Virus record (IMG/VR): IMGVR_UViG_3300037159_000004
Span: 1-59,180 of that record
Strand: one strand, 5' to 3'
Length of the DNA: 59,180 bases
From: a virus
Taxonomy: Duplodnaviria; Caudoviricetes
Positions within the stretch are counted from its first letter, which is position 1. Each line of letters starts with the position of its first letter. Shown here piece by piece: positions 1 to 52,878 of the stretch. Under the pieces are notes generated by a model. That model searched no databases and was not told the origin of the DNA. It was given only the letters and a program-made list of their open reading frames with translations. The translations under genes were made by a program, and so were the position numbers.

Positions 1-1754
1 AGCAGCAGCAGAACCAGATCCTGCGCGCCCGCATGCCGCTGATCCTATCGAGACTACATGGTCAGACACCCGACGTGGCCGGGGCGGGTGACCAGTCTGG
101 CGTCGACGCTGACGCTAACGAAGACTCGAACACCCCGAAGGGTGTGGCGGCGCAAGATAAGTCGGCGGTCGCCCCCGACCAGAATTTCTATCAACCAGAC
201 AAGATTGCCGCAGGCTACAGAAGCCACTTTTTCGTGCCGGCGGTAACTCCGCAAGAGAGTGACTCGCTTGCTAAAGCGTACGCCGCGGACCCTACCAACC
301 AGTACGGCGTGGGGCCCGCTAGCGTCATGGCGCGACGCGACTTTCGCATCGCGCAACAGACTCAGCAAAGCCAGCTCGGAGCGAACAACGAGTTTGACAA
401 GATGCACGCGGTGACGAACGCACCGGAAGGTGGCGCGATGGGTATCCTAGAGGCGTCGCACCCTGACACCGTCGACGCTATCCGTCGCCAGTTCGCGAAG
501 GATCCAGACGAAGCGATGGACGAAGACGCGGCCGCACGTATGTTCGCCTCGCACGCTGCGGGCGAGGTGCACCAGTACACCGGCCGCAAGGCGGTGGAAG
601 ATAAGGCGGGCGTGTACCGCGACGAGGTGACGCAGATGCCGATCCCCGGCGTCGAGAAGGTTGGTCTCTCGACTGATCAGTATCTCAAGCTCGCGCATGA
701 AGCCATCGCCCCGACACAGATGGACGACGGCAACGGCGGCAAGGTCACCGTCCCCGCATGGAAGGCCGCACAGATCGCTGGCGCAAAAAACATTAATGGC
801 CCCGGCGATTGGATCATGGTGAACGCGTCGAAGAACGGTCTACCGGGCTCCGCCGCGACCTTGAGCCCGAACAGCGCACCGAAGCAAGAGGCGCGCAAGG
901 TCGCGCAGGCCGCGCTTGATAAAGCGCAGGCGCAGCGCGACGCCGCGCCGCCGCCGGTCAACGGCACACCCGCCTCCGCTGCGGGTGGTCTCGGCGTAGC
1001 ACGCAACGCTCAAGGCAACATCGATCCGAAGCTGACCGATGCGTTGAACGATAAGAAGTACGACTACAAGCCGACGAACAACGGCGAACCGTACGATCCG
1101 GCGATTGGTAAAACACCGCCCCCGTCCGTGGCTGAAGACATGAAGAACCAGACTACCGCGCGGAACGGTCTCGCCAAAGATTCGAACCAAGGTGTCGGCG
1201 CCGCCTCCGCCGCGCTCACGATGTACAAGGCTGCACAGGACGTGCTCGCGAAAGGTAACTACAACGGCGGCGCCTGGAACCAGGAGCTGGCGAAGTATTC
1301 GAAGTGGCTGCCGGCAGACTGGCAGAGCCACATGACTGGCGACTACCAAGAGACCGCTAAGTATCTCGGGACCGCGGCCCTGCAGTCTGGCAAAGGAATC
1401 TTTGCGAAGATGACTCAGATGGAAGCGAAGATGCTGATGACTGAGCTTAACCCGTCGGCCGGTATGGACCCTGGCGCACTACGCGACATGATCGGCAAGG
1501 GCTCGAAGATGGCGCAGTACAGCCTCGACTCCGCGAAGCGCGTGCCGGCGTACTTGCACTCTGGTAAGGATGCGAATCAGTTCAACTCGTGGAACCAGGA
1601 GCACTTCCCGATGGAGACGGAGACGCAGCCGCCGACGGCGAAACCGAACGCGGGCGTCAACGCCCCGAAATATAACGATGCACAGGTGAGAGCGTACATG
1701 CAAAAATTTGGACTGAAGGACGAGCAGGCCACACGTAAAGCGTTGGGGCTGTAA
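1..1754 (+). CDS. DNA ejection/internal virion protein (5' part outside the window or continuing from 58184)
   Basis: Frame is open upstream of ATG 33 to the window start; Ala/Gln/Gly-rich helical protein; TAATG-coupled to the giant ORF; position matches the P22-like ejection cluster. Confidence 0.6.
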   Translation, partial: QQQNQILRARMPLILSRLHGQTPDVAGAGDQSGVDADANEDSNTPKGVAAQDKSAVAPDQNFYQPDKIAAGYRSHFFVPAVTPQESDSLAKAYAADPTNQYGVGPASVMARRDFRIAQQTQQSQLGANNEFDKMHAVTNAPEGGAMGILEASHPDTVDAIRRQFAKDPDEAMDEDAAARMFASHAAGEVHQYTGRKAVEDKAGVYRDEVTQMPIPGVEKVGLSTDQYLKLAHEAIAPTQMDDGNGGKVTVPAWKAAQIAGAKNINGPGDWIMVNASKNGLPGSAATLSPNSAPKQEARKVAQAALDKAQAQRDAAPPPVNGTPASAAGGLGVARNAQGNIDPKLTDALNDKKYDYKPTNNGEPYDPAIGKTPPPSVAEDMKNQTTARNGLAKDSNQGVGAASAALTMYKAAQDVLAKGNYNGGAWNQELAKYSKWLPADWQSHMTGDYQETAKYLGTAALQSGKGIFAKMTQMEAKMLMTELNPSAGMDPGALRDMIGKGSKMAQYSLDSAKRVPAYLHSGKDANQFNSWNQEHFPMETETQPPTAKPNAGVNAPKYNDAQVRAYMQKFGLKDEQATRKALGL

Positions 1755-4700
1755 TGGCTGACGATATCGATATCAGCGACATGCCGCACCCGAGCACAGT
1801 CGGGCTAGACCCCGCAACGCAGTCGGACCCTTCCGACGGCATGCCCGGTCCTGAAGACCTTTATCGCAAGTTCTACTTCGGTGGCGGCCTACCGAACGCT
1901 GAAGGGAAGATGGGTCCAACGGGGCCGATCCCGAAAGACGTGCTAGACGGCTTCATGGCGAACCCGCCCTCGTCCAGCGTCAGCGAGAACCTCAAGAAAG
2001 GTGCGTCTGCGCTCACTGGCTTGCCGAAGGTTGCCGCGGTCTGGAACCCGGTGACACCGACCGTGGCCGCCATAGCGGGAGCTGCCGGCGGAGCGAGCGG
2101 TATACTGGACGCCGCCGCCGACGTAGTCAGGAACCCGGACGACCTGCCGAACGTTCTCCCACGAGCGCGCCAGCGCATGCGTGACTGGTCGTCCGGCGTC
2201 TACAATCTGGCGGAGTACCTACCCTCCAAGCTGGCTACCGCCGAAGGTAACAAGGCCGCGGACACCCTCAACGACCTACCGCACCAGATCGGCAAGAATA
2301 TAAACGACAACGCCGTGCGTCCGCTGGTTGGCGATAACGTAGCTGACACCTTCGGCGATGTTGCCGGCGACGTTGGCACGCTGCTCCCTGGACTGCACGC
2401 CCCTGCGTTGGCGCGCGGCGCCGCGGGCGCCGTATCGAAGGCGGCGAAGGCAGGCAAGGCGTTCGTCGCCAGCGAGGCGGCATCAGTGAGCCCGCCGTCC
2501 CCTGAGGCTCCTTCGACCCCTGACGTCGGCACCCCAGTCTCTGCCGACTCGCTGCGCGCTCAACCGAACCCGATACCACCCCCGGACGGCACCGTAGCCG
2601 CTGCCCGGGCGCAAGCACAACCGGCCGCCGTGCCAACTGCAGAAACGGGGGATACGCAGGTAGCGGCCCCCACCTCGAACGCCGCCCCTGAGGCTTCTCC
2701 GTCGGTCGGTTCCGAGCCCACCCCCGCTGAAAATGCGCCGCGTCCCGCTGCCGGCGAGATTCCGCCGACAGGCGCCGCCGACCTCCCCGCCACGGACAAC
2801 GCCCCGCAGGACATGAACCTGTCACCCGACGAGCGGGCGCTGGTACGTGAAGGCGTCGCCGCGCGCCGCCGGGCATCCGATAACGCACCCGACTCCACCC
2901 AATCGCCCGGCGACGCGCAGCGCGGCTCCGTACGCATCTTCAATTCTCCTAAGGACGAGGGCCCGCAGGAGACCCCGCAGCCCGGAGAGCAGAGCGAGCG
3001 CGCGGCGCAGCTTGATGCGCTCGATAAACTCTCCGGCGGCGGTCTACCGTTGCGTCGCGCGTCCGCGATATCTGGTGACTACAACGCGACCGGCAACGAC
3101 TGGCAGGCCGCCAAGACCGGGAACGAGGCCGCACAGAGGCAGCTCGCGAGCGAGAACGACGCGCTCCACGCCGCAACCGACAACGTACACAACAGCACCG
3201 GCTCGCTCTCTGCAGACAGCGTCGACCCGACAACGTTGGGTGACCGTGGACGTACTACCCGCGGCGCTATCCAGGCTATCGAGAAGCACTTCAACGACGC
3301 GACTGACAGTATCTATGATACAGCCCGCGCGCAGAACCAGGGCCGCGCTATGCCGCGACCCGCGCGCATGAGCGCGTACCTGAACGACGACTCGAACTTC
3401 ACGAACGACGCCGAGCAGGGGCTACAGCAAGCCGCGAAGCAGCGGATGGAGAGGCTCTGGACTACCGGCGACCCGGACACTAACTCACCCGCCGGCAGCG
3501 TCAACGGCGCCGAGCGGCTACGTGAGTTTCTGAACGAGAAGGGTAAGAACCCGCAGGCGATGGGCGTCGCGGGTGATCTTAAGAATCATCTCGATATGGA
3601 CGTCGCCGAGCACGGCGGGCCCGGCCTGTTCGAGACCGCGCGCAACATGCGCCGCCATCAGTTCCAGATGCTTGAAGAGCCGGCCGGCATAAAGAAACTT
3701 CTGGCGCCCGGCGACAGCCAGGGCATCAACCACGCGATCCCTGAGCACAAGGTGATGGACTATATCGCCGACCTGCCTAGAGAGCAGCATGAGCACGTCA
3801 TGAACGTGCTACGTGCCGGCGCGCACCTGTCGCCTGAGATAGCAGAGTCGAGCGCGGCCGCGATCCGCGAGGTACAGGCGCACACGATCAGCCGCCTGCA
3901 TGACGCCGCGACCAACGACGGCGGCAAGTGGAACGCCAGAGATTTCTACAACGCCAGCTCCAGGTACGCACGCAACGCGGCGGACACCTTCAAGGACCGG
4001 CCTGACATCCTCAAGAACCTGAAGACGATCAACGACGCCGGCAACGTGCTCCACATGGACAAGAGCTACCCCGGCGCCGTCGGGCAGGCGGCACGTAGCG
4101 GTATACTCACGGGCGCGGTTAAGGGTGTGGGGGCGGTAGCCTCCAGCCTCGCGCACGAGATACCCATGGTCGGCCGTATAGTCGGTCGGGGTATCGAGGG
4201 CGCGACAGAGGCGGCGACCGGCGACATCGGGAAGAGGGCCGCCGAGAAGGCGTTCGAGAAGCGTACCGTCGACAGAAACGGAAAGCAGCGCGGCTCTGTC
4301 CAGCTCTTCAACGACAACGAGCTGAACCGAAAGAACGAGGAGCGGACCACCTTCCACGGGAAGGATGTCAACCCACGGAATGAGCGCAGCGAGCGGACCG
4401 CGAACCAGCAGATGGGTGGCCGGCGCCCGCTCACCGACGAGCAGAACGATGTGCTCGGTCGCCTCATGGGCGGGAAGCAGCGCGGCGCGGTCGGCGACCT
4501 GAGCCAGCGCGATGCGATCACTCACAAGAGCGCACCAGCTCAAGAGAGTGAGGGCGTCACCAACCACCTCTATGGTGTGCCTAACAAAGGCGGCGGGATG
4601 CTTGTGAAAGAGTACCCTGAGCGCGGCGTTAGCCAGGTACAGACGGCGAACGTGAATGATAAGGGTAACGGCTGGGGCACACGTATGCTGCAGCGAGCCG

Positions 4701-6862
4701 CGGACGACGCGCACGCTCGCGGTCAGGTACTGCACAGCGACGCGCAGGTATCAGAAGGTCAGACCGGCGCATATAAAAATCTTTCTCAGCTTGGCTATGA
4801 CGTCAAGATGAAGGACAACGATGTCCACGGCGGTGCCCGGCACGCTGTTGGCGATCACGTCTTCGAGGTGAAGCCCGGGAAAGGTTACCAGGCCCCTAAG
4901 GAGCTGGAGGACTTCATCAAGAAGAGTGCCCCAGCTCACCGCGTTGATGAGAACGGTCCCTCGAACTGGGAGGAGCTGCAGGCTCGCCGGAACGAGAAGG
5001 TGATGCCGATCAACCCGCAGGGCGGCGAGAATAGCATCTACAAAGATACCCCAACCAACATGGCGTTCCGTGCCTGGCACGACAAGACGCACCTCGACGT
5101 GAACGGTGGGTTCGATCACGACGGTGAGCTACGCACAGCTCAAGAGCAGCTGCGGCAAGCTAAGGCCGCAGGCCTGAGCGAAGAGTCACAGAAGGCTCTC
5201 TGGGCTGACACCTACGAGACCTTCAAGCACCACGAAGAGAACGGCGAGTTCCCGAAGGACCCGCGCCAGTTCGTTGCGCAGCGGATGAAAGACAAGACAC
5301 CGCTCGCTGACCGTATGCCGAAGCAGCGCGGCTCCGTGCAAGTGATGAACGATGAGGCTCCCCGCACCGCGGAGGAGGGCTCGCAGCTCAACATTGGATT
5401 GCACCAGGGACAGGAAGGCGACAAGAACTTCCGCAAGATGAGCAAGCAGGAGGCGCAGGCCGCAGTCGAGTCGACGGGCGCGAAGGTCACCAAGACCTCC
5501 ATCCTCACACCGAAGCAGCACGGCGTCTCCGAGCCGACCGCTGTGATGAGCACCGACCGTCCGCTGACTGACCATGAAATGAACGGCGTGCTCGCGAAGA
5601 CGAAGCAGTCAGCGATACCGCAGCGTACCGGTCAGGGCGATGAGTCGATGCACGTCGCGCCGGGCCACGAAGAGATCGCGAAGAAAGAGGGCTGGGACCA
5701 ATTCAACCGCGACTACTTCCGCGAGCACGATGGGCGCACCGCCGCTGAGACGGAAGCGAACCCGTCCGCTCCGAGCGCTCACCCGCCGAGCCCGAACGCT
5801 ACCGTCAAGGACGCGAAGCAGTCAAAGTTCCCGGGAATCTACGATGACCCGAAAGAGATCATGCAACGTCTCGGGGCCGGGCAGCCTGAGTCGCCGCACC
5901 TCAAAGAGATCTTCGGCAAGACCCGCAAGGATCTGCACGACGACGCGATTGCGCGCGGCGACGTTGAACCGAAGACACCGATCCCCGGGATAGCGCCGAA
6001 GGGTAAGGGGTCCGCCCACGCGAGCCAGGTGACGACACCTGAGAACGCCGAGCGGCTCCGCAACACCATCAGCGCCTACAAAGAGCACGACCTCAGCGGT
6101 TACCACGGGATGGTGGGCTGGTATGAGATGGACCCGATGTATCATTCGATCAAGAAGATACTCGGCGGGAACGAGGAGGCTGCGGGCAAGGTCTACCACA
6201 ACCTGAACAGCTACACCTCCTACGCGTCGCCGATGTCGTCCGTCGGGCCAGAGATCAGGCGCGGGAGCGCCGCCGCTACGATGGCGGCCGAAGGGAACTT
6301 CGACAAGTTCGCATCGCACGGCGGTCTCCCGCAAGACAAGGTACCGTCAGCCTTGAAGTCGAAGAACTTCGAGCTGGGGAACGAGGGCCACGCGATGCAC
6401 TCGACCGCTCACGCTGGCGCGATGTCGCGCTTCAATGAGACGGGGCAGGAAGCGAACGCGGTCAAGACCGGCACCTACCGGCGCTCGTCCGACTCACCCT
6501 CGCGTGAGGGTAGTGACCACCAGAACACGGTACCGGTCGGTGACTCGCACTGGGCTCGCGGGGTAGGTCTCGCCGACGTACGCGGCGCGAAGATGTCCGA
6601 CGGGTCCGCTGAGGGTACGGAGATGAAGGTGCTCGCGCCCTGGTACCACGACGAGGTTGCGCGTCACCACGACATCAACCTCCCATCTACATCTGCGCAG
6701 GCGGTGCAGTGGGGTGCGCTCAGTAAAGAGACCGGGGTCAACTCACCCATCGGCGCACCGAAGCTGGAGATATGGGCAGACGAGATCGCTGAGGCAGCGA
6801 AGAGAGAAGGTGTCGCCCCGAAGGCGATGTGGGAAAGGATCGTTAAGAGGTTAGCAAAATGA
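1754..6862 (+). CDS. Large ejection-type polyvalent protein (GNAT-like, HDxxH, SAM-lyase-like and HhH-GPD-like modules)
   Basis: 1702 aa between ejection and tail genes; motifs KGNGWGTRML, NMAFRAWHDKTH, LNIGL..EPTAV..KQSAI..GWDQFNRDYF, GWY..SP..K..VGDSH..QAVQW. Confidence 0.65.
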   Translation: MADDIDISDMPHPSTVGLDPATQSDPSDGMPGPEDLYRKFYFGGGLPNAEGKMGPTGPIPKDVLDGFMANPPSSSVSENLKKGASALTGLPKVAAVWNPVTPTVAAIAGAAGGASGILDAAADVVRNPDDLPNVLPRARQRMRDWSSGVYNLAEYLPSKLATAEGNKAADTLNDLPHQIGKNINDNAVRPLVGDNVADTFGDVAGDVGTLLPGLHAPALARGAAGAVSKAAKAGKAFVASEAASVSPPSPEAPSTPDVGTPVSADSLRAQPNPIPPPDGTVAAARAQAQPAAVPTAETGDTQVAAPTSNAAPEASPSVGSEPTPAENAPRPAAGEIPPTGAADLPATDNAPQDMNLSPDERALVREGVAARRRASDNAPDSTQSPGDAQRGSVRIFNSPKDEGPQETPQPGEQSERAAQLDALDKLSGGGLPLRRASAISGDYNATGNDWQAAKTGNEAAQRQLASENDALHAATDNVHNSTGSLSADSVDPTTLGDRGRTTRGAIQAIEKHFNDATDSIYDTARAQNQGRAMPRPARMSAYLNDDSNFTNDAEQGLQQAAKQRMERLWTTGDPDTNSPAGSVNGAERLREFLNEKGKNPQAMGVAGDLKNHLDMDVAEHGGPGLFETARNMRRHQFQMLEEPAGIKKLLAPGDSQGINHAIPEHKVMDYIADLPREQHEHVMNVLRAGAHLSPEIAESSAAAIREVQAHTISRLHDAATNDGGKWNARDFYNASSRYARNAADTFKDRPDILKNLKTINDAGNVLHMDKSYPGAVGQAARSGILTGAVKGVGAVASSLAHEIPMVGRIVGRGIEGATEAATGDIGKRAAEKAFEKRTVDRNGKQRGSVQLFNDNELNRKNEERTTFHGKDVNPRNERSERTANQQMGGRRPLTDEQNDVLGRLMGGKQRGAVGDLSQRDAITHKSAPAQESEGVTNHLYGVPNKGGGMLVKEYPERGVSQVQTANVNDKGNGWGTRMLQRAADDAHARGQVLHSDAQVSEGQTGAYKNLSQLGYDVKMKDNDVHGGARHAVGDHVFEVKPGKGYQAPKELEDFIKKSAPAHRVDENGPSNWEELQARRNEKVMPINPQGGENSIYKDTPTNMAFRAWHDKTHLDVNGGFDHDGELRTAQEQLRQAKAAGLSEESQKALWADTYETFKHHEENGEFPKDPRQFVAQRMKDKTPLADRMPKQRGSVQVMNDEAPRTAEEGSQLNIGLHQGQEGDKNFRKMSKQEAQAAVESTGAKVTKTSILTPKQHGVSEPTAVMSTDRPLTDHEMNGVLAKTKQSAIPQRTGQGDESMHVAPGHEEIAKKEGWDQFNRDYFREHDGRTAAETEANPSAPSAHPPSPNATVKDAKQSKFPGIYDDPKEIMQRLGAGQPESPHLKEIFGKTRKDLHDDAIARGDVEPKTPIPGIAPKGKGSAHASQVTTPENAERLRNTISAYKEHDLSGYHGMVGWYEMDPMYHSIKKILGGNEEAAGKVYHNLNSYTSYASPMSSVGPEIRRGSAAATMAAEGNFDKFASHGGLPQDKVPSALKSKNFELGNEGHAMHSTAHAGAMSRFNETGQEANAVKTGTYRRSSDSPSREGSDHQNTVPVGDSHWARGVGLADVRGAKMSDGSAEGTEMKVLAPWYHDEVARHHDINLPSTSAQAVQWGALSKETGVNSPIGAPKLEIWADEIAEAAKREGVAPKAMWERIVKRLAK

Positions 6863-9978: not shown

Positions 9979-10506
9979 CTAGTGCTGCGTGTGCCCGCTC
10001 AAGGACACACGTAGATTCTTTACGGGCGCGACCCCGGTCAGCTGCACCAGCTGAATTTCCACCCCCCACTTCCAGCCGCGCTTGCGGCACGCCGCGGTCA
10101 GCTCCTCGACCGTATCGCCGTGGACGATATCTGCCCACGACCTGTTGCTCAGTTCGGTACCGATGATGCCGGCGCAGCTGTCCGCAATGGCATCCTTCAG
10201 GTCGTGCACTTCTAGAATCGCTTTCTGAACGTCAGAGATGCGGTACGTGATCACCGCATCGAACCCGATAGCCTTACCGTCGCCCGTCGTCGTCGCGAGG
10301 CCAGTCAGCCGCTCCGTCCGCGGCACGATGAAGTCTTCGATCACGTTATCCACGAACGGAATCTTCCAGTACCAACCCCCGCTGTCGAGCACGCGCAGCA
10401 ACTTCCCCATGCGCAGCTGGACACCGCCAGAATACGGCGGCATCACCTTGATGGGCTCCAGCTCGTGCCAGATACTCGCCAGAAAATCTAGCAGTTTGTC
10501 CAGCAC
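9979..10506 (-). CDS. SPFH/band-7 domain protein
   Basis: GVQLRMGK..GWYWKIPFVD, TTGDGKAIGFDAVITYRI, WGVEIQLVQL. Confidence 0.8.
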   Translation of the reverse strand: MLDKLLDFLASIWHELEPIKVMPPYSGGVQLRMGKLLRVLDSGGWYWKIPFVDNVIEDFIVPRTERLTGLATTTGDGKAIGFDAVITYRISDVQKAILEVHDLKDAIADSCAGIIGTELSNRSWADIVHGDTVEELTAACRKRGWKWGVEIQLVQLTGVAPVKNLRVSLSGHTQH

Positions 10507-12160: not shown

Positions 12161-12537
12161 TGCGTTCTGCTCCGTTTTAAATAATTAATAGCTAGTGAGA
12201 GGGTATCCTCAGAATCTCCGAACAGTCCTATGCCTTGATTACACGGGCCGCAAAGCCAGCCACGAAACTCGCCGGTCAAGTGGCAGTGGTCTAGGTGCAT
12301 GCCGTTTTTCCTGGGAGGATTACCGCAGCACTCACATGTGTTCGGCTTAGGTCTAGTCGGCTCCGGCTGCTTCCGTGCTTTTCGTTTACGCTCAGGGTAA
12401 TCGATGCGCGCCTGCTTTTCTCTGGCTTTAACCTTATCCGCGTTGAGAGCGTACCATTTACGGTACATGTCACGAACCTTATCTCGGTTCTTGGCCGCCC
12501 ACCTCCGACTAGCCGCCTTATGTGCTTCAGTGCTCAT
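12157..12537 (-). CDS. Endonuclease VII-family (HNH) homing endonuclease
   Basis: CECCG..HLDHCHLTGEFRGWLCGPCNQGIG. Confidence 0.85.
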   Translation of the reverse strand: MSTEAHKAASRRWAAKNRDKVRDMYRKWYALNADKVKAREKQARIDYPERKRKARKQPEPTRPKPNTCECCGNPPRKNGMHLDHCHLTGEFRGWLCGPCNQGIGLFGDSEDTLSLAINYLKRSRTQ

Positions 12538-19618: not shown

Positions 19619-19968
19619 CCCAGGTCGTATACCCCATAGAGTGTAGTCTTCATCCGTTGATTCTCTGCCCTAAGATCCTGGCACTCTTTCACCAGCTCCG
19701 CGTAATCGGCGTCGAGCGCCGTGAACTTGCGAACCCACACGCTCTCATCGAGCGGGGACCGCTGCAGGGTCGAGCACTTCCGCTCATACTCGCGCCGCAG
19801 ATCCTCTAACGGCTTCGCGGCGTCGTGCTTGGGGAACAGTAGACGGAACAGCCAATTCTTCATAGCGCGACGCTCAGCGCCAGCGCGACGGTCGCGCCGA
19901 TCCAGTGGCCGGTGCTGTACAGTACGATGGAGGTTATCAATAGTCCCTGGCAGATATTCATCTTGCAA
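19606..19968 (-). CDS. Hypothetical coiled-coil protein (start may be 19863)
   Basis: ORF in the operon. Confidence 0.5.
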   Translation of the reverse strand: MQDEYLPGTIDNLHRTVQHRPLDRRDRRAGAERRAMKNWLFRLLFPKHDAAKPLEDLRREYERKCSTLQRSPLDESVWVRKFTALDADYAELVKECQDLRAENQRMKTTLYGVYDLGWFQ

Positions 19969-20368
19969 TCTCCCGTTGTAGATCCTTCAGCGCCTGCTGC
20001 ACGGTCCGCGGCGGCTGATAGTTGTAGAGCGGCGCCACCAGGCGCAACGCCGTACGCATCAGCAGCGCGGCGCCGAAGTTCCGATCATTGCCGGACCTTT
20101 GCGTCTTGAACTCGGCGGCGTGCGCCAGCAGCTCCTCGTTGTAGCGAAACTCGGAGTCGGTGAGATACTTCTCCCACCAGTAGTTGGCGCCGACGTGGCG
20201 CTGCTCGCGAAGGTGTACCTCCTCGTGCGCGATCAGTGCCGGCGGAATGGCGGCGCCACTCGGGTTGTAAATATGCCCGTCATACGCGAACAGCACGCCG
20301 GGGTCTTCCGCCTTCGGGAACGCGGCCTTGATCTGTTCGAAGTTCGGCGGCCGCTGCAGGATGATCAT
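19958..20368 (-). CDS. Putative HExxH metallopeptidase-like protein
   Basis: LIAHEEVHLREQ with downstream E residues (NEELLAH). Confidence 0.55.
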   Translation of the reverse strand: MIILQRPPNFEQIKAAFPKAEDPGVLFAYDGHIYNPSGAAIPPALIAHEEVHLREQRHVGANYWWEKYLTDSEFRYNEELLAHAAEFKTQRSGNDRNFGAALLMRTALRLVAPLYNYQPPRTVQQALKDLQREIAR

Positions 20369-47828: not shown

Positions 47829-50303
47829 ATGGGCAGCAACGCAGGCGACAACTGGGATCTGATTGGGAAAGTGCCGGGACAGTCCGGCACCCTCCCGCAT
47901 TCGCCTGGGTTCGAGATTGAGGATGAGGGCGCGCTCATGTCGCGCATCCATACGTTTTATGATGACGGTGTAGGCGCCTGGGAAGAGAACCGCCGCATGC
48001 ACTCCGAAGATTTGAACTTCATCTACAACGCGGAGGCGATGGGTCAGTGGGATCCGGTCGTACTCCAGAACAGGCGCGGCAAACCGTGCTACACGTTCAA
48101 CCGGTGCCTGCAGCCCGTGAACATGGTGGTCGCAGACATGCGCCAGACCCGCCCCGCAGGAAAGTGCCGGCCCGCATCTGACGGAGCCTCTGAGGCTGTT
48201 GCTGATATCTTCGGCGGACTGTGCCGAGACATCGAGAAGTGCAGCCGCGCTGACCAGATCTACAAAGAGCAGTTCAAGTTCTCCGTCGCTGGCGGTTTCG
48301 GTGCGTGGCGCATCATGCCGACCTACATGCAGGACGACGGTGACGGCGCCTTCGATCAGGTGCTGCGCGTCCTGAACATCGCGAACCCGCAGACAGTGGT
48401 ATGGGATCCGCAGTGCGCCGACGCGTGCGCCGCCGACGCCAACCGCTGCATCGTCGCGGAACGCATCTCTGACGATGTTTATGACCAATTGTACACAAGT
48501 GGTGAGAACCCTGTCGGCAACCGATCCAGCTTCAACATGTCGCGCGACAGCTACGGCTGGTTCACCGACAAAGAAGTTCGGATCGCTGAATACTTCGAGC
48601 GCATCCCGCGCGAGAAGATGATCGCCAAGATGACCGACGGCAGCGTGCGAGAGTACGATGCCGACCTAAGGGCGACAGAGAAGCACCTCGATGATCACGG
48701 GCTCACGTTCGAGAAGAGCGGCGTCACCCGGATCGCTACGAACAAGAAGACCGGCACCAAGATGATCCGCAAGACCATCAAGTGGCAGGTCATGTGGGTG
48801 AAGGTCGACGGCTCGAACGTACTCGACGGCCCCTACTACTATGACTGGAAGCGTATCCCGGTCGTGCGTTGCCCCGGCCGCTACATCAACATCGAGGGCC
48901 GCAAGAAATTCCAGTCGCTGATCCGTCACTCCAAGGACGCGCAGCGCAGCTACAACTCCCGTGCCTCGGACATGATAGAGCGCAGCGCGCTCCTGCCGAA
49001 GGCGCCGTACCTCGTCACTGAGGCGATGATCAAGGGCTACGAGATCGAGTGGAACCAGGCGAACGTCGCCTCGCGCCCGTACCTACCCTACAACGTCGAC
49101 AAGAACGCTGAGGGCGGGATGCCGTTCCGCACTCCGCCGCTCGACCTGCCGCAGGGTGCGATGGCGCTCGCGCAGATGTCGATCCAAGATATTCAGGCCA
49201 CGATAGGGTACTTCGACCCTGCGCTCGGTAACTCGGAAGATATGAACCGCGTCTCAGGTAAGGCGCTCGTGCAGCACACGAAGCGGTCCGACCTGGGCAG
49301 CTTCGAGTTTATCGACGGGTACGGGTCAGCGATGCAGCTCACCTGGGAGATGATGGTCGACATGATCCCGACCGTTATGGACTCGGAGCGCGTCACGCGC
49401 ATCATCGGTCACGACGGGATCGAGAAGATGATCACCGTCAACAAGGAAGACCCGAACTCTAACGACATCATCAACGACCTCTCGAAGGGGTCGTACGACG
49501 TTGAGGTTACCATCGGGCCGTCCTTCCAGTCTGCCAGACAGGAAGCGCTCGACACGCTGATATCGTTCGCCGAGGCGATGCCGCAGAACGCTCCAATGAT
49601 CGCGGACCTGATCGCGAAGAACGTCGACTCGCCGGACGCGCAAGAGATGTCGAAACGTCTACGGATCCCGCTGATACAGCAGGGTATCATCCAGCCGACC
49701 GCTGCGGAAAAAGAAGCCGGCGTCGGCGCGCAGAAGAACCAACAGCAGCAGATGCAGGAGCAGCAGCAGCAGCTTGAGATGCAGCTGCTGCAGGGCAAGA
49801 CCACGAAGATGACGGCGGACGCGCAGATCGCGCAGTCCCGCGCCCAGTCGAGCCCGATGGAGCAGCAAAAGATCCAGTACGAGACCGCCGGCAAGCACCT
49901 GGCGAACATCAAGCTGGCGCACGAGATCGGCGCCGACGGCAAACAGCAGCAGAACGACCTGCAGTCCGCACAGATGGATCTCGCCGCCAAGCACGTTGGC
50001 AACCTGCAAGACATGACGCACGCCGCCCAACAGCAGCAGCAAGACCAGCAGCAGCAGGTGGCGCAGCATCAGCACGATCAAACGATAGCGCAGGCGCAGG
50101 CGCAGGCTGAAGCGCAGCGCGCACAGCAGGCGCACGAGCTGGAGATGACCCGCGCCGCCCAACAGCACGAGGCCGAGATGCAGCGCATGCACGCAAAGCA
50201 CTCGCTGACGATGAAACATACCCAGGAGTTGAACGAGCAGAAGGTCGCCGCCGCGAAGGCGATGGCCGCTGCCAAACCGAAGAAGCCCAAAAAGGCTGCT
50301 TAG
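47829..50303 (+). CDS. Portal protein (P22 gp1-like) with a long Gln-rich C-terminal coil
   Basis: GQW..R.KP..TFN, IRHSKDAQR.YN, SGKA, G.YDV.V..GPS..S.RQE. Confidence 0.92.
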   Translation: MGSNAGDNWDLIGKVPGQSGTLPHSPGFEIEDEGALMSRIHTFYDDGVGAWEENRRMHSEDLNFIYNAEAMGQWDPVVLQNRRGKPCYTFNRCLQPVNMVVADMRQTRPAGKCRPASDGASEAVADIFGGLCRDIEKCSRADQIYKEQFKFSVAGGFGAWRIMPTYMQDDGDGAFDQVLRVLNIANPQTVVWDPQCADACAADANRCIVAERISDDVYDQLYTSGENPVGNRSSFNMSRDSYGWFTDKEVRIAEYFERIPREKMIAKMTDGSVREYDADLRATEKHLDDHGLTFEKSGVTRIATNKKTGTKMIRKTIKWQVMWVKVDGSNVLDGPYYYDWKRIPVVRCPGRYINIEGRKKFQSLIRHSKDAQRSYNSRASDMIERSALLPKAPYLVTEAMIKGYEIEWNQANVASRPYLPYNVDKNAEGGMPFRTPPLDLPQGAMALAQMSIQDIQATIGYFDPALGNSEDMNRVSGKALVQHTKRSDLGSFEFIDGYGSAMQLTWEMMVDMIPTVMDSERVTRIIGHDGIEKMITVNKEDPNSNDIINDLSKGSYDVEVTIGPSFQSARQEALDTLISFAEAMPQNAPMIADLIAKNVDSPDAQEMSKRLRIPLIQQGIIQPTAAEKEAGVGAQKNQQQQMQEQQQQLEMQLLQGKTTKMTADAQIAQSRAQSSPMEQQKIQYETAGKHLANIKLAHEIGADGKQQQNDLQSAQMDLAAKHVGNLQDMTHAAQQQQQDQQQQVAQHQHDQTIAQAQAQAEAQRAQQAHELEMTRAAQQHEAEMQRMHAKHSLTMKHTQELNEQKVAAAKAMAAAKPKKPKKAA

Positions 50304-50360
50304 TCGATCTGTGTGAGAACCGCCCCGCTGCAGCGCATCGCAGTGTATTAGGAGATCTGT

Positions 50361-51575
50361 ATGGCCTTTACCCGTGACGATTTAGAGAATTATGAAAAGC
50401 AGACGCAGAAGCAGGTTGACGACAAGGTCAACCCGTTCCGCGGTGCTACACCCGCCCGAGCCGCAGACCCGGCAGCGTTAGCTGCTGTCGCCTCGGGACA
50501 AGTTGATGCCACCACGGACGCCTCCCTAAAACAGGTAGTCCAAGGCGACCCGCTAGTCGACGACGATGCCCCTATCGTTGACGAAGACGGAACACTCGGC
50601 GACCAGACCGATTCTGGTGAAGGGACTTCGGACGATAACTCGGACTCGTCCACCGACACCGTCGACCTCAGCGATGACACAGACCCCAACACGGACTTGA
50701 CCGGAGAAGATGACGGCGTAGAGGCGCCGACAGCTCGTCCGGCCCCGAAGAAAGGTTCTGCTGAGGAACGCATAGTAGAGCTGAATGATCTGTCGGAAGG
50801 CTACAAGATATTTGGCAAGCAAATGCAGGGCCAGCTGAAGGATGCTTTAGCTGAGCTGGAACGGCTCAAGGCCGGCGGTAAACCTACCGCCGCACAGACC
50901 GTCGCTGCAGTTGCACCTCCTGTTGTTGAAGACGCACCTATGCCGGACCTAGCCGACGAGGATGTGGCCTTCGACAACGACAAGTATCGTGCGAAGATGC
51001 AGAAGTGGTCGAAGGATCAGGCCAAGATCGCCGCCCGCGAACTAATTCGCGAGATGACGGGTGCAGATGAGGCGGCAAAGCGCCGAGCTGCAGTCGAAGA
51101 GAGAGTCAGTGAGTTTAAGAAAACTCATAAAGATTACGATGCGGTCGTTACCAAGAACCCGGTATTGGGCGCGAGAGAGAATCAGCTCGCGTTCGACGCT
51201 GGTGTCGCTGTCGCTCAGTCGGAGCACGTCGGTCGATTGTTGTATGAGTTTGGGAAGGATACTGCGATGGCGGTTCGAACCGCCAGACAGACGCCAGCCC
51301 AGCAGCTCATAACCATCGGCAAGATGATCGCGAAGATTGAGGCAGAGACCACTTCAGGATCCAGGCAGAACGGCTCTAAGCCCAACGCGCAACAAGGGCA
51401 ACAGAAGTCCATCACCAAGGCGCCTCCTCCCCCCACCCCGACACGGGGCGGCGGACGTGCACAGCCTCGCGACCAGGTCGACCCTAACATGTCGATGGAT
51501 GAGTTCGCGCGGCAGCACAGAGGAAGCAAACAGTCAGCCCGAGAGCAGCATCGCAAGATGCGCGGACTGAACTAA
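50361..51575 (+). CDS. Scaffolding protein
   Basis: Between portal and coat; acidic N-terminus, helical core, TKAPPP...MSMDEF C-terminus. Confidence 0.8.
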   Translation: MAFTRDDLENYEKQTQKQVDDKVNPFRGATPARAADPAALAAVASGQVDATTDASLKQVVQGDPLVDDDAPIVDEDGTLGDQTDSGEGTSDDNSDSSTDTVDLSDDTDPNTDLTGEDDGVEAPTARPAPKKGSAEERIVELNDLSEGYKIFGKQMQGQLKDALAELERLKAGGKPTAAQTVAAVAPPVVEDAPMPDLADEDVAFDNDKYRAKMQKWSKDQAKIAARELIREMTGADEAAKRRAAVEERVSEFKKTHKDYDAVVTKNPVLGARENQLAFDAGVAVAQSEHVGRLLYEFGKDTAMAVRTARQTPAQQLITIGKMIAKIEAETTSGSRQNGSKPNAQQGQQKSITKAPPPPTPTRGGGRAQPRDQVDPNMSMDEFARQHRGSKQSAREQHRKMRGLN

Positions 51576-51594
51576 ATAAAATCGGAAAGGAATA

Positions 51595-52878
51595 ATGGCT
51601 AACTCACTAATCACCGCTCAATGGGTCGCACGCAAGGCACTGGTCTTGTTGCACGCCAAGAGCAACTTCACGGGTCGTACGAACCGTGACTATCAGAGCT
51701 TGCTGCCCGGCCCCATCAACGGGGTCATCTTGGGTCAACAGCTCTCGATCCGTCTGCCGTTCCAGTACACTCTGCGTACTGGCCCTCAGATGAACGCACA
51801 GAACTCGGTTCAGCGTTTCGCCACCCTGCTGGTCAACCAGCAGCTCGGCGTCGACATCAACTTCACTTCGGTGGAGCGAGCGATGTTGCTGAATAACTTC
51901 GAAGAGCAAGTGCTCGAACCTGCAATGGCGCGTCTGGCGGCCGGCATCGAGAACTTCACCACGGGACAAGTCAACAACGTTCCGAAGTTCACTGGCGCCT
52001 TCAACACCACCGCGACCTACGATCAGCTGCTCCAGAACGAGCAGTACCTGACGGAAGCGTTGGCCCCTGAGGACGACCGGCGTACTTTCACGGCGACCCC
52101 GCAAACCTCGCGGTATTTCGTTCGTGACAACAAGGGTCTCTTCAACCCCGAGTCCACGATCTCTGACCAATGGTTAGAGGGCGTGATCGCGGATAAGGCC
52201 GCTGGCTACGTCTGCTTCCGTAACACGAAGCTCCCGACGCACGTCATCGGAACCTTCAGCACGACCTCGGCCCCCGCTGTGAACGGCGCCGGTCAGTCGA
52301 ACCCCGGCGCGGGTAACGCGTTCGTCTCCACCTTCACGCTTGTCACCAACGGCTGGGCTGCGGGTCTCACGACCTTGAACGCTGGCGACGTGATCAGCAT
52401 CGCGGGTGTGAACGAGGTCGATCCCGAGACGAAGGCGTCCCTGGGCCGTCCCAAGCAGTTCGTTGTGACTGCGACCATCAGCGACACCGCTGGTGCGATC
52501 TCGATCCCGATTGCTCCCGGCATCATCACCGGTGGCGCATACCAGAACGTGGACAACGTTCCGGCCACGGGCGCTCTTATCAGCGTCTTCGGTCAGAGCG
52601 GTGCGGCTGCCCTCGCGTCCTTGAACGGCGCGTTGATCAAGCAGTCACTCGGCTGGTACCGTGACGCGATTGTGTTTGCGAACCCCCCGATGCTCGACCT
52701 CAGCCCCCTCGTCAAGATGACGGCTGCGGAATCGTTCGAAGGGTACAACATCCGCTTCGCTCAACAGTGGGATCCGTCTAACGACGTGCTCCCGGCTCGT
52801 CTCGACTCGATTGTCGGTGCAGTGCTCGCTTACCCCGAGCTGGCTGTGCGGAACATTGAAGTCGCGTCGGCTGCCTAA
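51595..52878 (+). CDS. Major capsid protein (P22 coat-like)
   Basis: MANSL.T, IRLP, VLEPAM..LA, AGDVISIAGV..V.P, RLD...G..YPE. Confidence 0.92.
   Translation: MANSLITAQWVARKALVLLHAKSNFTGRTNRDYQSLLPGPINGVILGQQLSIRLPFQYTLRTGPQMNAQNSVQRFATLLVNQQLGVDINFTSVERAMLLNNFEEQVLEPAMARLAAGIENFTTGQVNNVPKFTGAFNTTATYDQLLQNEQYLTEALAPEDDRRTFTATPQTSRYFVRDNKGLFNPESTISDQWLEGVIADKAAGYVCFRNTKLPTHVIGTFSTTSAPAVNGAGQSNPGAGNAFVSTFTLVTNGWAAGLTTLNAGDVISIAGVNEVDPETKASLGRPKQFVVTATISDTAGAISIPIAPGIITGGAYQNVDNVPATGALISVFGQSGAAALASLNGALIKQSLGWYRDAIVFANPPMLDLSPLVKMTAAESFEGYNIRFAQQWDPSNDVLPARLDSIVGAVLAYPELAVRNIEVASAA

What the first reader, a model, noticed from the sequence alone, without database searches (positions are those of the whole stretch)
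1754..6862. Giant ejection protein built as a polyprotein punctuated by a repeated QRG[S/A]V motif
Seen: four copies of the motif, AQRGSVRIFN (2918), KQRGSVQLFN (4286), KQRGAVGDL (4478) and KQRGSVQVMN (5324). Each lies at an apparent domain boundary: before the helical core, twice after it (the second just before the GNAT-like module), and just before the SAM-lyase-like module. Established: phage polyvalent proteins are injected with the DNA and carry counter-defence enzymes. Inference: the motif is a proteolytic release or cargo-attachment signal, so one ejected protein delivers several effectors.
Basis: partly seen in the sequence, partly recalled or inferred. Interest (0 to 1): 0.8.

Follow-up and report, generated by a model that had tools for sequence, protein, structure and literature searches.

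The report
Junction motif in modular phage ejection protein
A 1702-residue protein that this uncultured phage probably injects with its DNA is a string of swappable enzyme modules joined by one conserved short peptide (Gln-Arg-Gly plus a small residue), most likely a cutting site that frees the modules, although no cleavage and no protease have been shown.

Summary
ORF 1754-6862 encodes 1702 aa with QRG[SA]V at aa 389, 845, 909 and 1191. Composition predicts 0.007 copies, and no other frame of the window holds one.

- **Family-wide:** among 215 family proteins the motif (QRG + S/A/G) occurs in 96 of 111 proteins of at least 900 aa, against 4 of 94 under 820 aa.
- **Module joints:** cutting at the motif yields modules that recur in different orders and combinations. 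Similarity breakpoints lie within 10 aa of a motif in 36.7% of cases against 5.0% at random.
- **Linkers:** in AlphaFold models all four copies sit in low-confidence linkers between confident domains.
- **Modules:** a helical core shared with phage "injection"/transglycosylase proteins, a GNAT fold, and an HhH-glycosylase-like C-terminal domain. The "SAM-lyase-like" label has no support.
- **Context:** the head genes are P22-like and the gene sits in the ejection-protein slot.
- **No protease:** no peptidase family was found in 63 window ORFs.

Best reading (0.45): a processing site for a trans-acting, possibly host, protease. The main rival is an uncut hinge or docking handle. I rate it a new variant of a known kind, interest about 0.6.

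The parts
1754..6862 (+). Giant modular gene, 1702 aa (P0001), in the ejection-protein slot of a P22-like head/tail gene order
   Evidence: ORF list and translation. 77 homologues of 941-2091 aa. The portal is P22-like. Portal, scaffold and coat lie upstream.
1754..2926 (+). N-terminal module c1 (aa 1-391): conserved N-terminal part, then an Ala/Pro-rich low-complexity stretch ending in motif 1
   Evidence: Cluster c1 has 46 members. This module was not modelled.
2918..2944 (+). Motif copy 1, QRGSVRIFN (aa 389-397)
   Evidence: pLDDT is below 50 at model residues 1-12. More distant homologues lose QRG here but keep the (L/I)F..P..EGPQETP that starts the core.
2927..4294 (+). Core module c0 (aa 392-847): confident all-alpha domain (about aa 400-785), then a Gly/Ala-rich hydrophobic low-confidence stretch (about aa 785-819) and a long helix
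   Evidence: AF2 mean pLDDT 80.5. 417 representative proteins match at E<=1e-3. BFVD matches reach E 6.5e-16 and include proteins named LT_GEWL, Peptidase M15B, SLT, 'Injection protein' and LPD. No convincing PDB match.
4286..4312 (+). Motif copy 2, QRGSVQLFN (aa 845-853)
   Evidence: It is directly followed by a segment with pLDDT below 50 (model 469-476). DNA similarity to five related loci ends 13-14 nt after its first base.
4295..4486 (+). Mini-module c3 (aa 848-911), 64 hydrophilic residues flanked by motifs on both sides
   Evidence: Cluster c3 has 42 members. The alignment shows conserved F.NDN.LNR ... ERN.R.E..AN.Q ... L(T/S).EQ..IL.RL.G. pLDDT is about 50-67.
4478..4504 (+). Motif copy 3, QRGAVGDLS (aa 909-917)
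   Evidence: pLDDT is below 50 at model-2 residues 1-10. DNA similarity to four loci starts 9-12 nt before it.
4496..4879 (+). GNAT-fold domain (aa ~915-1042)
   Evidence: Foldseek against PDB gives GNATs at probability 1.00. VIA gives Z 9-10.4, for example 2g3a_A at Z 10.4, rmsd 2.4, 97 aligned, and AcrVA5 6iuf_B at Z 9.7. The profile hits acetyltransferase 7ypu at E 0.028 over the RG.G.G acetyl-CoA motif. Pfam is below threshold.
4898..5314 (+). Mostly helical domain D2 (aa ~1049-1187), function unknown
   Evidence: phrog_7806 at E 1.1e-13 and phrog_33646 at E 1.4e-10. tblastn hits to hypothetical proteins of Xanthomonas, Marinomonas and Vibrio phages.
5324..5350 (+). Motif copy 4, QRGSVQVMN (aa 1191-1199)
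   Evidence: It lies inside a linker with pLDDT below 50 (model 290-307). DNA similarity to L008, L014 and L015 starts within 3 nt of it.
5375..5758 (+).
   Evidence: Model. It is shared by the c4 and c5 terminal modules and by 14 of the 15 loci at DNA level. No hit in Pfam, PHROGs, PDB sequences, NCBIfam or the Atlas.
5831..6859 (+). All-alpha C-terminal domain D4 (aa ~1360-1702)
   Evidence: VIA: 3n0u_A, an 8-oxoguanine DNA glycosylase, at Z 11.4, rmsd 3.3, 185 of 209 aligned, model 530-770. This is borderline for a helical fold. The search with aa 1184-1702 returned 113 proteins of 285-909 aa; most match about 65-70% of the query (the D4 part), and some carry LPD23, DUF6782/M78, ART-PolyVal or DUF6321.
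58184..59179 (+). Upstream neighbour, first part. It continues in frame across the window ends into 3..1754, about 916 aa in all
   Evidence: Both ORFs are open-ended and the frame arithmetic joins them. The C-terminal 573 aa are conserved in 15 of 15 loci, the N-terminal part in 1 of 15.
47829..52878 (+). Portal, scaffold and major head protein genes that set the P22-like context
   Evidence: phrog_156, phrog_8865 and phrog_283. tblastn of the portal finds 237 phage records, led by Salmonella (95) and Escherichia (28) phage records, with Vibrio and Shewanella podophages as the best rows.

Best explanation
Shown: the gene encodes a modular virion-internal protein with a fixed front end and a variable rear. 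The front end is an N-terminal module plus a helical core carrying Gly/Ala-rich hydrophobic stretches. The rear is a train of cargo cassettes: a GNAT acetyltransferase fold, an unknown helical domain, an unknown alpha/beta domain and an HhH-glycosylase-like domain. Each cassette is joined to the next by the peptide [G][G/K/S]-Q-R-G followed by a small residue (S, A or G). Inferred: the front end loads the chain into the procapsid and later contributes to the trans-envelope conduit, as N-terminal parts of P22 ejection proteins do. The QRG joints would then be site-specific processing sites for a protease acting in trans, so that one packaged chain yields several free proteins. The protease would be a host enzyme, as OpdA is for P22 gp7, or an unrecognised phage protein. 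The cut is most simply placed after Gly, or between Arg and Gly. Whether it happens before packaging, in the capsid or after ejection is unknown.
For: - **Non-random and exclusive.** Four copies occur against 0.007 expected, none elsewhere in six frames. In 15 related loci the strict motif is in frame only in the giant ORF.
- **Tracks appended cargo.** It occurs in 96 of 111 proteins of at least 900 aa against 4 of 94 under 820 aa, among 215 family proteins. Many proteins of about 650-780 aa end right after the core and lack the motif.
- **Delimits units.** Pieces cut at QRG fall into recurring clusters that are re-ordered and recombined, for example P0026 c1|c3|c0|c4 and P0006 with seven sites. 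36.7% of 13,552 internal similarity endpoints lie within 10 aa of a motif against 5.0% of random positions. The median distance is 24 against 156 aa.
- **Accessible.** All four copies lie in low-pLDDT linkers between confident domains.
- **Site-like logo.** The invariant part is QRG with G/K/S upstream and a small residue at the next position. The residues after that come in flavours that go with the following module: SVRLFN before the core, AVGDLSQRD before GNAT, SVRVMNE.P before D3, SFSFQNDN before c3, and GPKF in distant relatives. Ala and Gly at that position argue against Ser-driven self-cleavage and for an enzyme acting in trans.
- **Selection on the protein.** QRG is kept through synonymous changes (CGG, CGA and CGT 5 of 45; GGA, GGT and GGG 10 of 45), and neighbouring Ser and Val codons vary freely.
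- **Shuffling does not need the motif.** The mosaic boundaries GNAT|D2 (aa ~1043) and D3|D4 (aa ~1327) lack it. The motif is therefore not simply a recombination scar.
- **Precedent.** P22 gp7 is matured by the host protease OpdA, and N-terminal fragments of gp7 and gp20 suffice for assembly into particles (passages of PMC8402733; gp7* in passages of 10.64898/2026.09.03.749273). Release of domains from polyvalent proteins by peptidases was proposed by Iyer et al. (passages of PMC5512222).
Against: - No cleavage product has been observed for any member, and the family is known only from metagenomes.
- No peptidase family was found in the 63 window ORFs scanned with Pfam. Portal and coat were scanned with PHROGs only, and many ORFs under 100 aa were not scanned at all. 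PHROGs scans of the giant protein and nine structural-region ORFs also gave none.
- P22-like heads normally lack a prohead protease (recalled).
- No module other than c1 and c0 is universal among motif-bearing proteins: complete genes end after GNAT, c3 or D3. An embedded protease is therefore unlikely, and c0 shows no protease-like conserved residues.
- Motif 1 has decayed to MRG, QSG or unrelated residues in several lineages that keep their other motifs. That cut, at least, would be dispensable.
- The residues after the motif are more conserved than a pure non-prime-side site requires.
- In crAss001 a cargo protein is seen uncut, bound in both capsid and tail, and the paper holds no mention of cleavage (passages of PMC10172136).
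- Codons at QRG are biased beyond background: CAG 45 of 45 against 82%, CGC 40 of 45 against 49%, GGC 35 of 45 against 51%. A DNA-level role may coexist. The 45 sites are related by descent and are not independent.
Confidence: 0.45

Rival explanations
1. Uncut hinge or docking handle. The chain stays whole. The QRG peptides are short linear motifs that bind a repeated site inside the particle (portal barrel, tail lumen, scaffold or coat interior). Alternatively they bind the translocation channel, ordering the unfolded cassettes for storage and threading.
For: The motif has conserved residues on both sides and a strand-like S-V-x-hydrophobic-hydrophobic-N pattern. The residues after motif 1 (LF..P..EGPQETP) belong to the conserved start of the core even in proteins without QRG, so the look-alike copies could dock in a similar way. 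crAss001 cargo protein C1 is resolved as short segments bound to portal and tail barrel, with no cleavage reported (passages of PMC10172136). P22 E proteins are stored mainly in the portal and tail lumina (figure legend in 10.64898/2026.09.03.749273). No protease was found.
Against: In the monomer models the motif segments dock on none of the domains modelled with them: core, c3, GNAT, D2, D3 or D4. A handle need not sit at every cassette joint, nor be absent from cargo-less short forms. P22 data place the assembly determinants in N-terminal parts, not along the chain. An invariant tripeptide followed by any small residue looks more like an enzyme site than an interface.
Confidence: 0.3
2. Recombination joint only. 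The conserved 9-14 nt (AAG)CAGCGCGGC(TC) is a microhomology at which related phages exchange cassettes in frame. The peptide is a tolerated by-product without a function of its own.
For: DNA similarity blocks between the window and related loci start or stop within about 13 nt of the motifs. Codons at QRG are more uniform than the gene background. Modules carry their own tails ending in QRG and their own heads starting after it.
Against: QRG is kept at the protein level through synonymous changes and across relatives with only about 30% core identity. Those relatives use a different continuation, GPKF. Nine to 14 nt is short for homologous exchange. Exchange also happens at boundaries without the motif, at aa ~1043 and ~1327. 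The 9-mer is not otherwise notable in the genome: 5 further copies, against 2.65 expected for the whole window.
Confidence: 0.08
3. Another kind of short linear motif. Candidates are a modification or recognition site (for example Arg ADP-ribosylation, Gln or Ser modification), a chaperone or secretion-machinery tag, or a decoy for a host defence protease.
For: Some homologues carry ART-PolyVal, GNAT or zeta-kinase-like modules that modify proteins. The phage also encodes a Cpn10-like and an SPFH protein. The motif is strongly conserved but has no identified reader.
Against: No modifying module is universal among motif-bearing proteins. Nothing ties the motif to any one of these activities. 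The strict placement at cassette joints is not explained.
Confidence: 0.1

Closest known systems
Polyvalent proteins of phages and conjugative elements (Iyer, Burroughs, Anand, de Souza, Aravind 2017, PMC5512222; passages read)
   Same: Both are very large multi-domain phage proteins predicted to travel with the DNA and carry enzymes such as GNAT and ART. Both show extensive domain shuffling. Relatives of this protein carry ART-PolyVal, and relatives of its C-terminal domain carry LPD23 and a DUF6782/M78 metallopeptidase. Release of domains by proteolysis was proposed there.
   Different: That proposal rests on embedded peptidases (zincin-like MPTase, assemblin-like). This protein and its close relatives show none. 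The passages I read describe no conserved inter-cassette peptide. I searched only for cleavage and peptidase terms and did not read the whole text or its supplements.
Phage P22 ejection proteins gp7, gp20 and gp16
   Same: The gene lies after the head and tail-hub genes and before the tail-fibre or tailspike gene, next to a P22-like portal. P22 gp7 is matured by a host protease (OpdA). N-terminal parts of gp7 and gp20 suffice for incorporation. gp16 reaches across the cytoplasmic membrane.
   Different: No sequence similarity to P22 proteins was found (one search lists 10 records, none P22-like). The core has no solved-structure match. P22 E proteins are 229-609 aa (recalled) and carry no enzyme cargo or repeated joint motif.
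T4 internal proteins and Alt (capsid-targeting sequence cut by prohead protease gp21), and phiKZ/SPN3US head proteins cut at A/S/G-x-E
   Same: Cargo is loaded into the head and freed by cleavage at a short conserved motif. Enzymes are delivered with the DNA (T4 capsid-targeting sequence mentioned in PMC8402733; SPN3US listings only).
   Different: Those phages encode the prohead protease that defines the motif. Here none was found, and the head type normally has none. The motifs differ (x-x-E against Q-R-G). Here many cassettes sit in one chain.
MARTX multi-effector toxins and junction motifs of polymorphic toxins (VENN, DPxGL) - recalled, not tested
   Same: A constant delivery part is followed by variable effector modules. 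Short conserved peptides mark the joints where modules are exchanged and, in several systems, released.
   Different: Those are bacterial toxins with a built-in cysteine or aspartyl protease. There is no homology, and this chain has no built-in protease.
Cargo proteins C1 and C2 of crAss001 (Bayfield et al. 2023, PMC10172136; passages read), with junction motifs noted by this scan in crAss-like phages
   Same: These are virion-stored, ejected proteins. Earlier unchecked notes of this scan describe modular cargo joined by [K/Q]-x-G-G-like peptides. That resembles the Q-R-G-G(PKF) flavour of distant relatives here.
   Different: It is a different phage order with different folds. crAss001 C1 appears uncut. 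The likeness of the motifs is a lead that I did not test.

Membership tests
Polyvalent proteins (Iyer et al. 2017) | Large phage or plasmid protein combining several unrelated domains in one chain | tested here: met
   Five motif-delimited modules and at least six folded domains in 1702 aa.
Polyvalent proteins (Iyer et al. 2017) | Signature domains (LPDs, ART-PolyVal, MPTase and others) | tested here: inconclusive
   None in P0001 itself (Pfam). ART-PolyVal is present in homologue P0018 (E 2.2e-17). LPD23 and DUF6782/M78 are present in relatives of the C-terminal domain.
Polyvalent proteins (Iyer et al. 2017) | Embedded peptidase proposed to release the domains | tested here: not met
   No peptidase family in P0001 or in the eight homologues scanned.
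P22-type ejection (E) proteins | Gene position between tail-hub/needle genes and the tail-fibre gene in a P22-like late operon | tested here: met
   The order is portal, scaffold, coat, phrog_578, small ORFs, 916-aa ORF, 1702-aa ORF, 208-aa ORF, 759-aa ORF. The portal is P22-like.
P22-type ejection (E) proteins | Sequence or fold homology to gp7, gp20 or gp16 | tested here: inconclusive
   No P22-like record among the tblastn hits. No PDB fold match for the core. BFVD matches include a protein named 'Injection protein (Fragment)' and transglycosylase-bearing phage proteins.
P22-type ejection (E) proteins | Present in virions and ejected into the cell | not testable with these tools
   The phage is uncultured and no proteome is available.
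GNAT acetyltransferases | GNAT fold with the acetyl-CoA motif R/Q-x-x-G-x-G/A | tested here: met
   Fold Z 9-10.4 over aa ~915-1042. Foldseek probability 1.00. The profile alignment to 7ypu covers the RGkGwGtrml motif. Pfam's threshold was not reached. Activity is untested.
SAM lyase (T3 gp0.3 type) | Sequence or fold similarity of aa ~1208-1335 to a SAM lyase | tested here: inconclusive
   No hit in Pfam, PHROGs, the phage tblastn, the PDB profile search, the Atlas or NCBIfam. The fold lists were filled by other domains, so the fold itself was not tested.
HhH-GPD DNA glycosylases | HhH-GPD fold with a catalytic Asp after the hairpin | tested here: inconclusive
   3n0u_A at Z 11.4, rmsd 3.3, 185 of 209 aligned, which is below the tool's caution line for helical folds. 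Conserved G-D-x-H-x-x-R-G-x-G-L-x-D-V-R exists, but catalytic residues were not mapped.
Prohead-protease-processed head cargo (T4 IP/Alt type) | Phage encodes a prohead protease whose site matches the joints | tested here: not met
   No peptidase family in 63 ORFs by Pfam. Nine structural-region ORFs scanned with PHROGs gave portal, scaffold, head and connector families only. An unrecognised protease cannot be excluded.

The most novel reading that the evidence does not exclude
QRG followed by a small residue is the cutting signal of a conserved bacterial protease, or of an unrecognised phage protease. These podophages would use it to turn one packaged chain into a MARTX-like volley of free effectors on entry. 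It would also be one instance of a wider, undescribed convention of Q-x-G-[G/S/A] junction tags shared by unrelated phage lineages, crAss-like phages among them. Appended cargo could then be read off, and engineered into, ejection proteins by this tag alone.
Probability: 0.15. Interest if true: 0.85.

Novelty: new variant of a known kind. Interest (0 to 1): 0.6.

Why it matters
How tailed phages load and deliver extra enzymes with their DNA is poorly understood outside T4 and the jumbo phages. Here a single invariant tripeptide marks every cassette joint in a large, entirely uncultured family. The family holds at least 417 representative clusters of the core, and its long forms carry the tag.

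- **Annotation rule:** cut at QRG+S/A/G to find the cargo modules. Most of those modules have no known family.
- **Sharp experiment:** express one chain, mutate the tripeptide, and look for neo-termini.
- **If cleavage is confirmed:** this would be a polyprotein strategy in a phage type that has no head protease. It would point to a host or novel protease and give a portable tag for loading foreign proteins into capsids.
- **If the chain is uncut:** the motif is a new docking or threading signal for protein ejection.

Tried and rejected
- **Protease hunt.** Pfam on 63 window ORFs gave no peptidase. PHROGs on the giant protein and nine structural-region ORFs also gave none. A motif scan found one HExxH, in a 136-aa ORF (19958-20368, minus strand) that matches no Pfam family. 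I rate that chance-level. It also found a GDSQG in the helical core, which is not conserved in short-form relatives. The conserved 208-aa downstream neighbour looks like a beta-rich tail-fibre part from its sequence and has no family hit.
- **Self-cleavage by Ser N-to-O shift.** Set aside, because Ala or Gly replaces Ser in many copies.
- **Double-glycine or LxGG-type site upstream.** Set aside, because the spacing between the helix/GG and QRG varies and many sites lack GG.
- **Chi-like genome signal for CAGCGCGGC.** Five copies outside the gene, against 2.65 expected for the whole window; unremarkable.
- **Core fold.** Foldseek against PDB gave no hit at E<=0.001. VIA wide gave a best Z of 7.7, which is meaningless for a helical model.
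- **D3 function.** The Atlas gave no usable hit, NCBIfam nothing, and PHROGs on ten short-form relatives nothing.
- **Complex prediction.** Portal plus the c3 segment with two motifs returned 'no answer' (score 0.00), which is no evidence either way.
- **A natural C-terminus at QRG.** P0086 ends exactly in ...KKQRG. Its locus could not be fetched from viral or metagenome contigs, so a contig-end truncation cannot be excluded. Apparent stand-alone D3-D4 proteins that closely match this gene sit on contigs of 1-4 kb and are gene-call fragments.
- **Host.** The only genome-collection hit is one MAG contig.
- **Literature.** Four full-text searches found no paper describing this motif.
- **Earlier scan notes.** Nothing for this genome or this sequence.
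Full report
**1. The observation**

The window is a complete 59,180-nt IMG/VR virus record, rated 100% complete by CheckV. Its two ends join in frame across an ORF. ORF 1754..6862 on the plus strand encodes 1702 aa. The protein's composition predicts 0.007 copies, and no other copy exists in any of the six frames of the window. A repeat search recovers the four copies as the top direct-repeat family of the gene. All four use CAG CGC GGC, while the next two codons differ between copies.

**2. Conservation in relatives**

A word-indexed search returned 77 homologues of 941-2091 aa. All are metagenomic and several sit on contigs of 56-62 kb. Their precomputed Pfam domains differ: ParB-like, DUF7178, ART-PolyVal, GNAT, zeta toxin and Hydrolase_2. 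QRG occurs up to seven times per protein.

The logo over 246 sites is [G/S][K/G/S]-Q-R-G, then S (186), A (46) or G (14), then V or F, then x-hydrophobic-hydrophobic-N.

An exhaustive phmmer search with the core (aa 380-860) against 1.84 billion representatives gave 417 proteins at E<=1e-3. Many are 650-780 aa long and end right after the core.

Across the 215 proteins then in hand, I defined the motif as QRG followed by GP, S[VIFAT] or A[VL]G. It occurs in 96 of 111 proteins of at least 900 aa and in 4 of 94 proteins under 820 aa. The 10 proteins of 820-899 aa were not counted. Relatives with only about 30% core identity use GGKQRG-GPKF(E/T)P.

The universal element is therefore QRG plus a small residue. 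What follows it comes in flavours that go with the next module:
- SVRLFN before the core
- AVGDLSQRD before the GNAT domain
- SVRVMNE.P before domain D3
- S[VF][QS][LF][FQ]NDN before the mini-module c3

**3. The motif delimits mobile units**

Cutting the 78 proteins after QRG and clustering the pieces gave 44 clusters. The criteria were BLASTP E<=1e-5 and at least 60% coverage both ways. The main clusters are:
- c1, N-terminal module (46 members)
- c0, core (69)
- c2, GNAT (43)
- c3, a mini-module of about 64 aa (42)
- c6, the window's GNAT plus D2 (5)
- the terminal modules c4 (26) and c5 (21, with DUF7178)
- many singletons

The order varies. P0026 reads c1|c3|c0|c4, and P0006 carries eight pieces.

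A test that does not depend on that cutting used internal endpoints of pairwise BLASTP alignments. Of 13,552 endpoints, 36.7% lie within 10 aa of a motif, against 5.0% of random positions. The median distance is 24 against 156 aa.

At DNA level, similarity blocks between the window and 15 related loci start or stop within about 13 nt of motifs 1-4. They also stop at two boundaries that lack the motif: the end of the GNAT domain (aa ~1043) and the end of D3 (aa ~1327). Cassette exchange therefore does not require the motif.

In every locus the strict motif is in frame only in the giant ORF. The seven other regex matches are QRGG[GS] or QRGSA strings in ORFs of 52-270 aa in other reading frames; the two in the window lie antisense to the portal and coat genes.

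**4. Structure**

Two AlphaFold2 models were made with family alignments.

| Feature | Model 1 | Model 2 |
|---|---|---|
| Residues | aa 380-920 | aa 901-1702 |
| Sequences in alignment | 53 | 26 |
| Mean pLDDT | 80.5 | 84.1 |
| Stretches with pLDDT below 50 | model residues 1-12, 406-440, 469-476, 509-511, 527-537, 539-541 | model residues 1-10, 290-307, 636-650 |
| Motif copies covered by those stretches | 1, 2, 3 | 3, 4 |

Motif 1 lies inside segment 1-12, and motif 3 lies inside 527-537 of model 1 and 1-10 of model 2. Motif 2 (model residues 466-468) is directly followed by segment 469-476. Motif 4 lies inside 290-307.

- **Core (aa ~400-785).** It is all-alpha with no convincing solved relative: Foldseek found nothing at E<=0.001 and the best VIA Z was 7.7. 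In BFVD it matches 43 viral proteins at E<=0.001, the best at E 6.5e-16 with TM 0.61. Among them are proteins named LT_GEWL, Peptidase M15B, SLT domain (Escherichia phage C130_2), 'Injection protein (Fragment)' and 'Large polyvalent protein associated domain'.
- **aa ~915-1042.** This is a GNAT fold. Foldseek probability is 1.00. VIA Z is 9-10.4 and includes the anti-CRISPR acetyltransferase AcrVA5 at Z 9.7. A profile alignment covers the acetyl-CoA motif.
- **aa ~1049-1187.** It matches phrog_7806 and phrog_33646, both of unknown function.
- **aa ~1208-1335 (D3).** It has no hit anywhere, and its fold could not be searched alone. The label is unsupported.
- **aa ~1430-1670.** It aligns with an HhH-GPD 8-oxoguanine glycosylase, 3n0u_A, at Z 11.4, rmsd 3.3, 185 of 209 residues. 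That is borderline for a helical domain. A search with aa 1184-1702 returned 113 phage proteins of 285-909 aa, most matching only the D4 part. Most lack QRG, and some carry LPD23, DUF6782/M78 metallopeptidase, ART-PolyVal or DUF6321. This ties the family to the 'polyvalent protein' world.

**5. Context**

Portal, scaffold and coat lie upstream. The portal's phage relatives are P22-like podophages. The gene order runs portal, scaffold, coat, phrog_578 protein, small ORFs, the 916-aa ORF, the 1702-aa ORF, the 208-aa ORF and the 759-aa ORF. This places the giant gene where P22 has genes 7, 20 and 16. That P22 gene order is recalled, not taken from a call.

Published P22 work, read as passages, makes three relevant points:
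- gp7 is matured by the host protease OpdA.
- N-terminal parts of gp7 and gp20 suffice for incorporation into particles (PMC8402733).
- gp7*, gp20 and gp16 build the trans-envelope channel, with gp16 crossing the cytoplasmic membrane (10.64898/2026.09.03.749273).

**6. Mechanism**

- **Shown:** a fixed front end (c1 plus c0) followed by a variable train of cassettes, joined by an invariant, accessible tripeptide that is under protein-level selection.
- **Inferred:** the front end loads the chain and later acts in the conduit, and the joints are processing sites that free the cassettes.

For cleavage:
- The motif tracks appended cargo.
- The site-like logo has a small residue after Gly.
- The joints lie in linkers.
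- P22 gives a precedent for host-protease maturation.
- Iyer et al. proposed that polyvalent proteins are released by peptidases (PMC5512222).

Against cleavage:
- No product has ever been seen.
- No peptidase family was found in the 63 ORFs scanned.
- No cargo module is universal, so an embedded protease is unlikely.
- Motif 1 has decayed in some lineages.
- The residues after the motif are strongly conserved.
- crAss001 cargo is seen uncut and bound in portal and tail (PMC10172136).

Ala or Gly after QRG excludes Ser-driven self-cleavage as a general mechanism. The scissile bond (G|S or R|G) cannot be told from sequence. I give cleavage 0.45, an uncut hinge or docking handle 0.30, another kind of motif 0.10, and a pure recombination joint 0.08.

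**7. The codon observation**

At 45 motif sites in 15 genes, codon use is more uniform than in the rest of the same genes:

| Residue | Codon | At the motif | Rest of the genes |
|---|---|---|---|
| Gln | CAG | 45 of 45 | 82% |
| Arg | CGC | 40 of 45 | 49% |
| Gly | GGC | 35 of 45 | 51% |

The neighbouring Ser and Val codons vary. The sites are related by descent and are not independent. This may reflect accuracy selection at critical residues, homogenisation by exchange at the joints, or a DNA-level role that coexists with the protein-level one. It remains unexplained.

**8. Comparison and novelty**

The closest known kinds are these:
- polyvalent proteins (same logic, but here without an embedded peptidase and with a defined joint tag)
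- P22 E proteins (same slot, no detectable homology)
- T4 and jumbo-phage head cargo (same idea, but with a dedicated head protease)
- MARTX and polymorphic-toxin junction motifs (analogy only, recalled)

Earlier unchecked notes of this scan describe junction peptides in cargo proteins of other phages. Some of them, in crAss-like phages, are of the [K/Q]-x-G-G type and resemble the Q-R-G-G flavour here. That is a lead, not evidence.

Four literature searches found no description of this motif. Supplementary files could not be read. I rate the finding a new variant of a known kind, with interest 0.6.

Noticed in passing
window 44555-47158 (+): The large terminase appears split. Terminase_6N is in ORF 45471-46385 and Terminase_6C in ORF 46382-47158, in a different frame with a 4-nt overlap. 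A further overlapping ORF, 44555-45673, has no family. This could be a frameshift, a sequencing error or a real split.
   Followed up: no
window 58184-59179 and 3-1754 (+): The open-ended ORFs at the two window ends join in frame into an ORF of about 916 aa, directly upstream of the giant gene. Its last 573 aa are conserved in 15 of 15 related loci. Its first 332 aa match only 1 of 15, so it has a variable N-terminal part.
   Followed up: partly
window 9979-10506 (-) and 43347-43634 (+): The phage encodes an SPFH/Band 7 protein (E 1.4e-14), conserved at 75-80% in 8 related loci, and a Cpn10/GroES-like protein (E 1.1e-07).
   Followed up: partly
window 4106-4210 (aa ~785-819 of the giant protein): A Gly/Ala-rich hydrophobic stretch at the end of the helical core has low model confidence. 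A similar stretch lies in the N-terminal module around aa 100-125. These may be membrane-active segments.
   Followed up: no
L003:8897-12508: A complete 1204-aa relative lacks D3 and D4. It still ends in the same tail of about 30 residues (AAKR.GV.PK.MW.RIV.RL) as the window's protein, joined directly to the c3 module without a QRG. The extreme C-terminus may have a role of its own.
   Followed up: no
L006:8987-14494: The giant ORF of this 60.6-kb relative stops 62 residues after its last motif, in Arg/Ser/Thr/Pro-rich sequence. About 1.65 kb separate that stop from the conserved 208-aa neighbour. This is probably a frameshift or an assembly error in the terminal module.
   Followed up: partly
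window 2918-5332 and 15 related genes: Codons of the QRG tripeptide are far more uniform (CAG 45/45, CGC 40/45, GGC 35/45) than the same residues elsewhere in these genes (82%, 49%, 51%). Adjacent codons vary. Unexplained.
   Followed up: partly
window 19958-20368 (-): A 136-aa ORF holds the only HExxH in the ORFs scanned and matches no Pfam family. One such match is about what chance gives.
   Followed up: partly
window 14699-37405 (-): The minus-strand block encodes family A DNA polymerase with exonuclease, SNF2 helicase, Enc34-type SSB, DUF2800, a PD-(D/E)XK nuclease, a resolvase-type recombinase and at least three HNH endonuclease families. Only the polymerase (14699-16948) and SNF2 (12527-13945) were mapped to ORFs.
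   Followed up: no
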